Positions 43,900-45,647 of a stretch of 61,100 nucleotides of DNA are shown here, piece by piece. Location of the stretch: positions 1-61,100 of the forward strand of contig JANXEV010000003.1 of the NCBI GenBank assembly GCA_025057985.1, written 5' to 3'. The translations under genes were made by a program, and so were the position numbers. A model generated the notes under the pieces. The model searched no databases. It saw only the letters and a list, made by a program, of their open reading frames with translations, and had not been told where the DNA came from. Source of the DNA: Candidatus Aenigmatarchaeota archaeon. GTDB lineage: Archaea > Aenigmatarchaeota > Aenigmatarchaeia > CG10238-14 > SpSt-28. Within the stretch, counting starts at the first letter, position 1, and every line of letters starts with the position of its first letter.

Positions 43900-44373
43900 T
43901 TACTTAAACACATTTTTAATGAAAATTCCAAAGTAGTAGGAAAAAATCAACACAAATATAGCTATACACAAATGTTCTAAAACAACATTAATTTTTTTGT
44001 TTTTTCTATCGGTAATGTAGTAACTAAAAATCGACAGTAGAAACAGACCATACATTATGTTTATTTTCACTGCTATTTCCAAAGGAAATAAAATAATCGG
44101 AAAAATAAAAGAAATTCCACAAAAAAATTTGGACAAAAATGTGAAGATGGTTGAAGCCCAAACTTCTTTCTTTGAATGTTTATTTTCAGATTCTTCTGAT
44201 ATGTGAATACCTAAAGCGTCCGATAAAGCGTCCGCCACAGCGATAATAAGAATACCACCAATAACAGCCAGTTTAGAGCCAGTAGTGGCGTCCAATCCAA
44301 CCATTAAACCAAGTGTTGTTATAACAGCGGAAGTCAGACCAAAACTTACACCAACCTTTACAGAATGCTTCAT
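43900..44373 (-). CDS. VIT1/CCC1 family metal transporter
   Basis: FGLTSAVITTLGLMVG, ADALSDALGIHISEESE. Confidence 0.9.
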   Translation of the reverse strand: MKHSVKVGVSFGLTSAVITTLGLMVGLDATTGSKLAVIGGILIIAVADALSDALGIHISEESENKHSKKEVWASTIFTFLSKFFCGISFIFPIILFPLEIAVKINIMYGLFLLSIFSYYITDRKNKKINVVLEHLCIAIFVLIFSYYFGIFIKNVFK

Positions 44374-44409
44374 AGATTACTTTTGAACTTTATACAAAAA
44401 ACTCTTTTT
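44349..44409. repeat. 61-bp perfect direct repeat, copy 1 (VIT1 5' end plus upstream region)
   Basis: CACCAACCTTTACAGAATGCTTCATAGATTACTTTTGAACTTTATACAAAAAACTCTTTTT, identical to 45587-45647. Confidence 0.97.
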
Positions 44410-44537
44410 GATTTTAAGAAAACATAAGAAAATAAGTCGGTTTTTATGATAATTCGGTCTTAGAAAAAGATTTTATGAAAGGGATTTTTTTCAAAAAGGT
44501 AAAAAGTATTTAAGCTTTTAGATGCATAGTCTTAAGT

Positions 44538-45515
44538 ATGGAGAAGAGAGATAACGAGGAGTTAATAGAAAAAATATTTGGTTGTGATTTAAGAACGGCT
44601 GCGAATATTTTGGAAATTATTAGAAAGGGACCGAACAACATTATACAATTTTATACACATGACTGCCATCCATTTCCTCCATTCTTGGAAGAAAATGTTG
44701 AAGAATATTTTAAAAAATATTCTAAATCAATTTTTGGTGAAAGTACTAAAGTTGAAGTAGGTTTAAAGGAAGAAGACCCAGAAGATATGTACGAGTGCCA
44801 AAGATATTTTAATGGGACAAAAATAGTTTACGGAGACGCCCAATGTAAATATAAAAAAACGGATGATGAGCAAGTGGTTTTATTATTTATTTTTTATGGG
44901 CTAAAAACACCTACTGGTAAATCACACTTAGACATAGTTGGACTTATAGCAGGTGAGCCTCACACCAATTATGAGGGGGTTAAAGAAATCATGAAAAAGA
45001 TAAAAAAATTAACAGATTTTGGTTTTATTGATCCTGTATATCCACCTTTTTATGATCCAATCAAGGAAACAGCTTATAGTACTTTTAAAAAAGAAAATAT
45101 TGATTTAGTGTTTTTTATTGAGGGTTTTGAAATTTCTAAAGAGGTAGATTTAAGAGATATCTTGGAAGTTGGAGAAAAGTTTTATAAAGAATTATTTAAA
45201 GACGACAATTTTGTAGCAGGAGGATATGAAAATTATTTTCCACCAGAAGGTAAAATAAGTATGACAGTTCTTGAAGAAAAAGACAATAAGAATTATGGGA
45301 GAGAAGTTTATCTCAATCTTAGATCTGTAGAAGGAATTAATATAGTGAGGTTACAAACTAGAGGTGTAAATGAAGAGAGAAGTGATGGAGAAATAAGGGA
45401 CATTATTCAAAAAATAAATGAGAAAATATCTAACCGTAGAATAAAAATAGTAGAAGCGGAAAGGTATTGCATTAATGATCAAATAAGAGAGACAGGCCTA
45501 AGGAGAATTTTATAA
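44538..45515 (+). CDS. Hypothetical protein between the 61-bp repeats; distant paralogue of 46490-47335
   Basis: ORF track; shares the EEK.K..YG.E motif with the paralogue. Confidence 0.8.
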   Translation: MEKRDNEELIEKIFGCDLRTAANILEIIRKGPNNIIQFYTHDCHPFPPFLEENVEEYFKKYSKSIFGESTKVEVGLKEEDPEDMYECQRYFNGTKIVYGDAQCKYKKTDDEQVVLLFIFYGLKTPTGKSHLDIVGLIAGEPHTNYEGVKEIMKKIKKLTDFGFIDPVYPPFYDPIKETAYSTFKKENIDLVFFIEGFEISKEVDLRDILEVGEKFYKELFKDDNFVAGGYENYFPPEGKISMTVLEEKDNKNYGREVYLNLRSVEGINIVRLQTRGVNEERSDGEIRDIIQKINEKISNRRIKIVEAERYCINDQIRETGLRRIL

Positions 45516-45586
45516 AAAGCTATTTTCTAAGAATGTAAAAAACCTTCAATATAGAAACTTTGAGTGTAACAAAAGCTAGAAAATTG

Positions 45587-45647
45587 CACCAACCTTTACA
45601 GAATGCTTCATAGATTACTTTTGAACTTTATACAAAAAACTCTTTTT
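45587..45647. repeat. 61-bp perfect direct repeat, copy 2 (abortive VIT1 start MKHSVKVGAIF*)
   Basis: Identical to 44349-44409, 1238 bp downstream. Confidence 0.97.

What the first reader, a model, noticed from the sequence alone, without database searches (positions are those of the whole stretch)
44349..45647. 1238-bp single-gene cassette bounded by a perfect 61-bp duplication of the VIT1 5' end
Seen: the identical 61-mers include 25 coding bp and 36 upstream bp of VIT1; copy 2 gives only MKHSVKVGAIF*. Between them lies one 325-aa orphan gene with no integrase or transposase. Recombination between the copies would excise a 1238-bp circle and leave VIT1 intact, divergent from the protease gene. 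Perfect identity implies a recent event. Inference: an attL/attR-like minimal element about 0.5 kb from dif, or a switchable cassette that also changes the VIT1 upstream context. An assembly artefact is possible.
Basis: partly seen in the sequence, partly recalled or inferred. Interest (0 to 1): 0.65.

Follow-up and report, generated by a model that had tools for sequence, protein, structure and literature searches.

The report
Repeat-flanked single-gene insertion beside VIT1
A tiny hot-spring archaeon carries one extra gene of unknown function, inserted between two neighbouring genes and bracketed by two identical 61-base copies of its neighbour's promoter and first codons.

Summary
A perfect 61-bp direct repeat (44349-44409 and 45587-45647, spacing 1238) brackets one 325-aa orphan gene. 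Copy 1 is the true core promoter plus the first 25 coding bases of VIT1.

Misassembly is unlikely. The assembly used k=77, which is longer than the repeat, and an independent MAG about 99% identical (GCA_026414285.1) has the same layout.

In a third strain (about 97% identical; Logan runs SRR7039829 and SRR7039830) contigs break inside the repeat exactly where a k=31 graph would break if the repeat were duplicated there too. So the event predates strain divergence and is not "recent".

The host is a thermophilic Aenigmarchaeota-type DPANN archaeon. It has one tyrosine recombinase, 19 kb away. The repeat has no dif-like or hairpin features. No transposase, inverted ends or extra degenerate copies were found.

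The cargo has its own archaeal promoter and no homologue anywhere. With two downstream orphans it forms a low-GC, fast-evolving island 0.5 kb from dif.

Best reading: the footprint of a single-crossover (Campbell-type) insertion of a 1.24-kb circle that carried a surrogate VIT1 promoter and 5' end. It is now inherited vertically and could in principle be lost by RadA recombination.

The parts
44349..44409 (.). Repeat copy 1 (R1). This is the functional VIT1 core promoter (A-rich BRE-like -36..-29, T-rich/TATA -28..-16) plus VIT1 codons 1-8.
   Evidence: The promoter geometry fits the genome-wide profile.
45587..45647 (.). Repeat copy 2 (R2), identical to R1. It sits 71 bp after the orf325 stop and 46 bp before the orf268 start.
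44410..45586 (+). Unique cassette body B (1177 bp): 128 bp upstream region, orf325, and a 71-bp tail. GC is 29.4%, the 4th percentile of genome windows.
44538..45515 (+). orf325, a lineage-specific orphan protein. It is intact in both MAGs (99% aa identity).
   Evidence: The AF2 model has pLDDT 44 and is uninformative.
44501..44514 (+). Putative orf325 promoter: AAAAAG (BRE-like, -37..-32) followed by TATTTAAG (-31..-24).
   Evidence: Read. The position fits the genome-wide TATA peak at -29..-25. This is an inference.
45576..45611 (-). 11-codon remnant ORF MKHSVKVGAIF*, headed by the duplicated VIT1 promoter. It points antisense into the orf325 3' end.
   Evidence: Read. Transcription is inferred, not shown.
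43900..44373 (-). VIT1-family gene (157 aa), the target whose 5' end is duplicated.
   Evidence: There are thousands of homologues of about 158 aa.
45694..46500 (+). orf268, the right-hand neighbour. It has its own TATA (TTTTATAAG, -30..-22) and is hypervariable between strains.
46490..47335 (+). orf300/281, the third orphan of the low-GC island.
43792..43819 (.). dif-like palindrome TTAGAGATAA-TGGTAC-TTATCTCTAA, 530 bp left of R1. It is context only and is not part of the repeat.

Best explanation
The 1,238-bp unit (one repeat plus the 1,177-bp body) is the footprint of a single-crossover, Campbell-type insertion. A small circular DNA carried one gene (orf325, with its own promoter) and a 61-bp surrogate copy of the VIT1 core promoter and first eight codons. 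It went into the 82-bp back-to-back promoter region between VIT1 and orf268. Because the duplicated segment runs from the upstream edge of the VIT1 BRE/TATA to codon 9, VIT1 stays fully expressed wherever the crossover fell. The displaced copy now heads an 11-codon stub that points antisense into orf325.

The element has no recombination genes. The insertion was made either by RadA-dependent homologous recombination across the 61 bp or by a recombinase acting in trans. It then became fixed and is inherited vertically in all sampled strains of this Aenigmarchaeota species, as part of a low-GC island of fast-evolving orphan genes next to dif. Recombination between the two perfect 61-mers could still delete it precisely.

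Shown: the structure, its reality, its age relative to strain divergence, and the absence of mobility genes. Inferred: the circular intermediate, the recombination route, and promoter activity.
For: - The repeat is exact, has only two copies, and has sharp edges.
- The assembler's final k was 77, shown by many exact 77-bp contig-end overlaps. Each junction is therefore carried by real k-mers that span the whole repeat.
- The independent MAG GCA_026414285.1 has the same repeat and spacing.
- Cassette divergence between the two MAGs is 6 SNPs in 1177 bp. This equals flank divergence (99.3-99.4% identity), so the cassette was present before the split.
- In the third strain the VIT1 contig ends at repeat base 31 in both Logan runs. 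The orf268 contig starts at repeat base 25. This fits a k=31 graph with a shared repeat of about 54 bp.
- Deleting one unit leaves an 82-bp divergent intergenic region with two canonical promoters. The repeat's edge at -36 coincides with the genome-wide BRE/TATA window.
- orf325 has its own promoter-like element at the canonical distance.
- The body has no inverted termini. The genome has one tyrosine recombinase, 19 kb away. RadA is present.
- The body and the two next orphans are low in GC (3rd-4th percentile) and have no homologues.
Against: - No empty site, circular junction or alternative cargo was observed. Only three strains exist in the collections, and all appear to carry the duplication.
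- No source of the circle is known. orf325 has no homologue in viruses, plasmids or any genome.
- The sequence outcome is identical for homologous and site-specific routes, so the route is undecided.
- No other VIT1 locus (72 examined) has a duplicated 5' end, so the site is not a recurrent slot.
- The reading of strain 3 rests on contig-end logic, not on reads.
Confidence: 0.5

Rival explanations
1. It is an active, integrase-less mobile or switchable cassette. The 61-mers are working attL/attR sites, and a host recombinase acting in trans (or RadA) inserts and excises the 1.24-kb circle. The population would then be a mix of occupied and empty sites, and different cargo could sit in the same slot.
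For: - The geometry is attL/attR-like, and the surrogate gene end ends exactly at the promoter edge.
- In strain 3 the copy next to orf268 carries A39G inside the stretch that the contig ends imply is shared by both copies. This hints at homogenisation or re-insertion.
- No orf325-like protein of 179 aa or more from the Logan runs that hold strain 3 is on record, although the flanking contigs there are 6.8 and 8.4 kb. The cargo there may differ.
- Earlier notes of this scan describe similar repeat-flanked, integrase-less cassettes in DPANN archaea. These are leads only.
Against: - No empty site or circle was seen.
- The same cargo and spacing occur in two MAGs, with vertical-type divergence.
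- The only tyrosine recombinase is Xer-like, and the repeat has no dif-like site, no inverted binding sites and no hairpin.
- There are no extra or degenerate repeat copies that would mark accretion.
- The absence of orf325 from Logan protein sets may simply reflect fragmented contigs.
Confidence: 0.15
2. orf325 was always next to VIT1. The second copy is a later local duplication, by template switching or a gene-conversion-like copy, of a 61-bp promoter segment that landed between orf325 and orf268.
For: - The two-copy structure alone cannot tell which part is the insert.
- Removing only copy 2 leaves a plausible 117-bp spacer between orf325 and orf268.
- The cassette is compositionally like its neighbours orf268 and orf300.
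Against: - There is no mechanism-specific trace.
- The copied piece includes 25 coding bases and ends exactly at the promoter edge. That fits a surrogate gene end better than a random copy.
- Deleting the whole unit gives an even tidier pair of back-to-back promoters.
Confidence: 0.12
3. It is a transposition-like or end-joining insertion at two nicks 61 bp apart. Fill-in of the staggered ends created a 61-bp target-site duplication.
For: Direct repeats with sharp edges flank a foreign-looking, low-GC segment.
Against: - No transposase or casposase lies in or near the segment.
- The segment has no terminal inverted repeats (read).
- To my knowledge, target duplications made by prokaryotic transposases and casposases are 2-15 bp.
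- The CRISPR repeat here is 28 nt, so Cas1-type off-target integration would duplicate about 28 bp, not 61.
Confidence: 0.08
4. It is an assembly artefact. A free 1.24-kb circle that shares 61 bp with the chromosome, or a graph loop, was threaded into the contig.
For: Only short-read MAGs are available, and a loop A-R-B-R-C and a circle plus empty site share all k-mers shorter than 61.
Against: - Final k=77 exceeds 61, so the junction k-mers VIT1-R-orf325 and orf325-R-orf268 must exist in reads.
- A second assembly from a different population (about 1% divergent, with indels) gives the same join.
- No alternative junction contigs are in the bin.
Confidence: 0.04

Closest known systems
Cis-mobilizable elements (CIMEs) and other att-flanked, integrase-less derivatives of integrative elements (own knowledge; also named in earlier notes)
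   Same: A short DNA segment bounded by direct repeats that duplicate the end of a host gene. It has no recombinase of its own, and its excision would restore the target.
   Different: CIMEs derive from, or sit next to, ICEs or IMEs whose integrase acts on their att sites. Here there is no such element and no integrase other than one Xer-like enzyme 19 kb away. The target is a protein gene's promoter and 5' end, not a 3' end or a tRNA. The cargo is a single orphan gene.
Archaeal and bacterial integrative elements that carry a surrogate gene end (SSV-type and pNOB8-type elements in tRNA genes; prophage e14 in icd) (own knowledge)
   Same: A long stretch of identity (tens of bases) between attP and attB keeps the target gene intact after integration.
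   Different: Those elements are several kb or more, encode their integrase, and usually replace a 3' end. This unit is 1.24 kb, has no integrase, and duplicates a promoter plus 5' codons.
IMEX elements that exploit Xer at dif (CTX, VGJ, TLC, the gonococcal island) (own knowledge)
   Same: They have no integrase of their own, depend on a host recombinase, and lie close to dif.
   Different: IMEX elements are flanked by dif-like sites. This repeat has no similarity to the local dif palindrome, and dif is single-copy 530 bp away.
Pop-in intermediates of laboratory gene replacement in archaea (single-crossover plasmid integration followed by pop-out) (own knowledge)
   Same: The topology is identical: the insert is flanked by direct repeats of the homology segment and is resolved by RadA-dependent recombination.
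   Different: This is a natural event with only 61 bp of homology, no vector or selectable marker, and it is stably inherited.
Integron gene cassettes
   Same: A single-gene circular cassette without its own recombinase.
   Different: There is no integron integrase and no attI or attC. The repeat does not fold (dG -2.1 kcal/mol, z -0.6). The cargo has its own promoter.

Membership tests
Site-specific integrative element (attL/attR of a tyrosine or serine recombinase) | Direct repeats at both borders that duplicate part of the target | tested here: met
   61/61 identical, only two copies in the genome.
Site-specific integrative element (attL/attR of a tyrosine or serine recombinase) | An integrase encoded in the element, or a cognate one elsewhere in the genome | tested here: not met
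The element holds only orf325, with no Pfam hit. Serine recombinases were not searched.
Site-specific integrative element (attL/attR of a tyrosine or serine recombinase) | An empty attB in relatives, or an excised circular form | not testable with these tools
All three strains found appear occupied. More distant relatives lack synteny.
CIME-type cis-mobilizable element | att-flanked segment without recombination or transfer genes | tested here: met
CIME-type cis-mobilizable element | Derived from, or adjacent to, an ICE or IME that uses the same att site | tested here: not met
   No integrative element lies next to it, there are no further repeat copies, and there is no second recombinase.
IMEX (Xer-exploiting element) | Flanked by dif-like sites | tested here: not met
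   The best local alignment of either strand of the repeat to dif is 5-8 bases. Perfect dif half-sites lie at dif itself (43793, 43809) and inside the wHTH gene (42525, 42753), and none lies in the repeat.
Integron cassette | attC hairpin site and an integron integrase with attI | tested here: not met
   The repeat is unstructured. There are no inverted repeats in it and no nearby integrase.
IS / transposon / casposon | A transposase or casposase, terminal inverted repeats, and a short target duplication | tested here: not met
   The single ORF has no family hit. The termini are not inverted repeats. The duplication is 61 bp.
Campbell-type single-crossover insertion (works-like category) | The insert plus one repeat equals a circle, deleting it restores an intact locus, and the host has a recombinase able to use the homology | tested here: met
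   The geometry is read, the restored 82-bp divergent promoter region, and RadA is present. The circular donor itself was not observed.

The most novel reading that the evidence does not exclude
The unit belongs to an as yet undescribed class of minimal, integrase-less, single-gene cassettes in DPANN archaea. Each would carry a surrogate copy of a host gene end, here an entire core promoter plus 5' codons rather than a tRNA or 3' end. Host machinery would insert and excise them, so that strains hold different cargo between the same repeats. Strain 3, whose repeat is duplicated but for which no orf325 protein is on record, would be the first hint.
Probability: 0.13. Interest if true: 0.7.

Novelty: new variant of a known kind. 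Interest (0 to 1): 0.33.

Why it matters
DPANN archaea have tiny genomes yet carry many strain-specific orphan genes, and how those genes get in is poorly understood. This locus is a clean, datable example of one gene gained without any mobility gene. The duplicated promoter and 5' end leaves the target gene untouched. If read data showed excision or alternative cargo, it would point to a host-driven cassette system that uses promoter-containing attachment sites. If not, it remains a tidy but ordinary recombination scar in a variable island next to dif.

Tried and rejected
- **Read-level test.** The look-up of sequencing runs and read laying were closed, so empty-site and circle junctions could not be sought.
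- **Homologues of orf325.** I found none in 40 relatives, 5.8 billion proteins, 1.84 billion representatives by HMMER, GTDB genome contigs, viral contigs, or phage and plasmid records. The only other match is a short SHxxLxxLxxGxPHTxY motif in giant repeat proteins.
- **Structure.** The AF2 single-sequence model has pLDDT 44, so I ran no fold search.
- **Exact search for the repeat core.** It gave no hits in genome contigs or viral contigs.
- **Synteny in relatives.** VIT1 neighbours are not conserved in the genus or order. The bestrophin-like gene is absent from the genus. The closest metagenome hit, L065, has a different neighbour.
- **Recurrent-slot test.** None of 72 other VIT1 loci has a duplicated 5' end.
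- **dif/IMEX idea.** Rejected.
- **attC-like hairpin.** Rejected.
- **Accretion array.** Rejected, because there are no degenerate repeat copies.
- **CRISPR self-targeting of the cassette.** None of 76 spacers matches it.
- **Paralogy of orf325 and orf300.** Marginal only (BLASTP E 0.029, shuffle z 2.6).
- **Search of the second MAG's whole genome.** That genome is not held.

Full report
**1. Observation**

The window is the whole of contig C31 of a 554-kb, 37-contig MAG. The sequence CACCAACCTTTACAGAATGCTTCATAGATTACTTTTGAACTTTATACAAAAAACTCTTTTT occurs at 44349-44409 and again at 45587-45647, 1238 bp apart. It occurs nowhere else in the genome.

- Copy 1 contains the ATG (44373-44371, minus strand), the first 25 coding bases and 36 upstream bases of a 157-aa VIT1-family gene.
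- Copy 2 reads MKHSVKVGAIF-stop (45576-45611).
- The only substantial ORF between the copies is orf325 (44538-45515, plus strand).
- Identity stops sharply. To the left 5 of 7 bases match (p about 0.03 against random pairs) and nothing beyond that. To the right there is no similarity.
- The only longer exact intra-contig repeat lies inside an FG-GAP-like repeat protein on C34.

**2. Is it an assembly artefact?**

Many contig ends of this MAG overlap other contigs by exactly 77 bases. That is the signature of a de Bruijn assembler with a final k of 77. A 61-bp repeat is shorter than k. The joins VIT1-R-orf325 and orf325-R-orf268 must therefore each be present as real 77-mers in the reads.

A second MAG, GCA_026414285.1 (contig JAOAJG010000003.1, 61.6 kb, labelled Candidatus Aenigmarchaeota archaeon), is 98.6-99.4% identical over 17 kb and differs by indels. 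It is therefore a separate assembly of a separate population. It has the same two 61-mers with the same 1238-bp spacing. No alternative junction contigs are in the bin. I put misassembly at about 4%.

**3. Host and surroundings**

The window encodes reverse gyrase, an archaeal-type GluRS, SecY and FtsZ. The genome is 33-34% GC and about 0.55 Mb. This is a thermophilic DPANN archaeon (Aenigmarchaeota by the NCBI label).

From left to right the locus holds:

- a wHTH gene with phased repeats;
- about 900 bp of AT-rich non-coding DNA with a small ORF;
- a dif-like palindrome at 43792-43819;
- VIT1 on the minus strand;
- the cassette;
- then orf268, orf300/281 and an NAD-dependent epimerase on the plus strand.

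The genome has one tyrosine recombinase, at 24831-25760. It also has RadA and CRISPR arrays with 76 recoverable spacers, none of which matches the cassette or island.

**4. Anatomy in terms of promoters**

Across 411 long ORFs of this genome, TATA-like hexamers peak at -29 to -25 from the ATG, preceded by an A-rich stretch at -35 to -30. This is the signature of leaderless archaeal transcripts.

- Upstream of VIT1, read on the minus strand, is AAAAAGAG (-36..-29) followed by TTTTTTGTATAAAG (-28..-15).
- The repeat's right edge at -36 therefore coincides with the upstream edge of the core promoter.
- The repeat is exactly "core promoter plus the first eight codons".
- orf325 has AAAAAG-TATTTAAG at -37..-24.
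- orf268 has TTTTATAAG at -30..-22 (read).

Removing one unit leaves an 82-bp divergent spacer with two back-to-back core promoters 12 bp apart. That is a tidy ancestral site. The duplicated VIT1 promoter in copy 2 now points into the 3' end of orf325. Promoter activity is inferred, not shown.

**5. The cargo**

orf325 has no hit in any of these searches:

- Pfam, PHROGs or PADLOC;
- 40 relatives;
- 5.8 billion proteins, other than its own allele;
- a full HMMER scan of 1.84 billion representatives;
- GTDB, viral, phage or plasmid collections.

The only outside similarity is a roughly 25-residue motif (SHLDIVGLIAGEPHTNY) that recurs in giant repeat proteins. I treat that as a lead only. The AF2 model is unusable (pLDDT 44).

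The body is 29.4% GC, the 4th percentile. orf268 and orf300 are similar, so the three orphans form a 2.9-kb low-GC island. The suggested paralogy of orf325 and orf300 is marginal (E 0.029, shuffle z 2.6).

**6. Age**

Between the two MAGs the cassette body has 6 SNPs in 1177 bp (0.5%). VIT1 has 3, the repeats have none, and the flanks differ by 0.6-0.7%. The cassette was therefore already present in their common ancestor.

A third strain, 97.1-97.8% identical, is present in Logan assemblies (k=31) of SRR7039830 and SRR7039829.

- In both runs the VIT1 contig ends at window position 44379, which is repeat base 31.
- In SRR7039830 the contig that carries orf268, orf300 and the epimerase begins at the equivalent of 45611, which is repeat base 25.
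- In a k=31 graph a contig that enters a repeat keeps about 30 of its bases. These two ends fit a shared segment running from repeat base 1 or 2 to base 54.
- This agrees with the two substitutions seen in the orf268-side copy at bases 55 and 58.
- A single-copy site with SNP bubbles does not reproduce these ends.

I infer that the duplication also exists in strain 3, and that A39G is present in both of its copies. That would mean one concerted change. This rests on contig-end logic and needs reads.

At these divergences the expected number of differences between the two copies is 0.4 to 1.6. Perfect identity therefore does not imply recency, and it does not require gene conversion.

No orf325-like protein of 179 aa or more from these Logan runs is in the collection, although the flanking contigs are 6.8 and 8.4 kb. 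The content between the copies in strain 3 therefore remains unknown. This is the most interesting loose end.

**7. Mechanism**

The A-R-B-R-C topology, sharp edges, intact target and lack of any transposase, inverted termini or short target duplication fit a single-crossover (Campbell-type) insertion of a 1,238-bp circle that carried one repeat.

Whether the crossover was homologous (RadA is present, and 61 bp is enough in archaeal genetics, from my own knowledge) or site-specific cannot be told from the product. Several points argue against a dedicated site-specific system:

- the only tyrosine recombinase is Xer-like;
- the repeat has no dif-like sequence;
- the repeat has no inverted binding sites and no fold;
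- there are no further repeat copies that would mark accretion;
- no other VIT1 locus among 72 shows a duplicated 5' end.

In favour of a "designed" surrogate end, the repeat ends exactly at the promoter edge.

The rivals are an active switch or cassette system, a later local duplication of the promoter segment, a staggered-cut insertion, and an artefact. I put them at 0.15, 0.12, 0.08 and 0.04.

**8. Comparison with known systems**

It works like a pop-in intermediate or an att-flanked integrase-less element (CIME-type). It fails the membership tests for CIMEs (no cognate ICE or IME), IMEX (no dif-like flanks), integron cassettes (no attC or IntI) and transposons.

Earlier notes of this scan list several similar repeat-flanked, integrase-less cassettes in DPANN and other archaea, mostly at tRNA or 3' gene ends. 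These are unverified leads. If they hold, this locus would be a 5'-end and promoter variant of the same theme.

**9. Verdict**

The structure is real, and I interpret it as a fixed recombination footprint of single-gene gain. Interest is moderate to low unless read data show excision or alternative cargo.

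Noticed in passing
window 45847-46354 (orf268); L012 9157-9921; L080 84-875: orf268 is a divergence hot-spot between strains. Window versus second MAG shows 31 non-synonymous against 4 synonymous changes (pN/pS about 1.9), plus an 18-bp insertion, a 45-bp deletion and a different C-terminus. The three strains give proteins of 268, 254 and 263 aa. This looks like diversifying selection on a host-interaction or defence-type gene.
   Followed up: partly
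genome contig C36:15630-17492: The RadA (PF08423) match is split into two blocks about 1.1 kb apart within one 705-aa open frame. This suggests an intein inside RadA.
   Followed up: no
genome contigs C11:1-560, C33:47716-47818 and small contigs C14, C16, C20, C21, C23, C27, C28, C29: CRISPR arrays with the repeat GTTTAAGGAGAACTAGAGAGTATGGAAG and spacers of about 44 nt (76 unique). No spacer matches the genome's own chromosome outside the arrays.
   Followed up: partly
whole genome (411 long ORFs): There is a strong positional signal of TATA-like hexamers at -29..-25 and A-richness at -35..-30 relative to the ATG, with a weaker GGAG-type signal at -13..-10. Many genes appear to be leaderless.
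   Followed up: partly
window 43292-43353 and 43377-43438: An imperfect 62-nt direct repeat (74% identity) lies in the 900-bp AT-rich non-coding stretch (22-25% GC) between the wHTH gene and dif. A small conserved ORF (68-74 aa, 43434-43658) is called there in all three strains.
   Followed up: no
window 44907-44960 (orf325 residues 124-148): The motif TPTGKSHLDIVGLIAGEPHTNYEG matches a unit repeated 6-7 times in giant proteins of 1775 and 3688 aa (SHxxLxxLxxGDPHTQY). Its function is unknown.
   Followed up: partly
L020 (Ga0114920_10000001) 4082, 5954, 7907: A 16-21-nt motif (CAAAGTTGAAAACTTCTGGTA) occurs three times around a distant VIT1 homologue, once 47 bp upstream of its start. It may be a regulatory site.
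   Followed up: no
genome contig C34:21417-21493 and 21687-21763: A perfect 77-bp repeat, exactly the assembler's k, lies 270 bp apart inside an FG-GAP-like repeat protein. The copy number there may have been collapsed by the assembler.
   Followed up: partly
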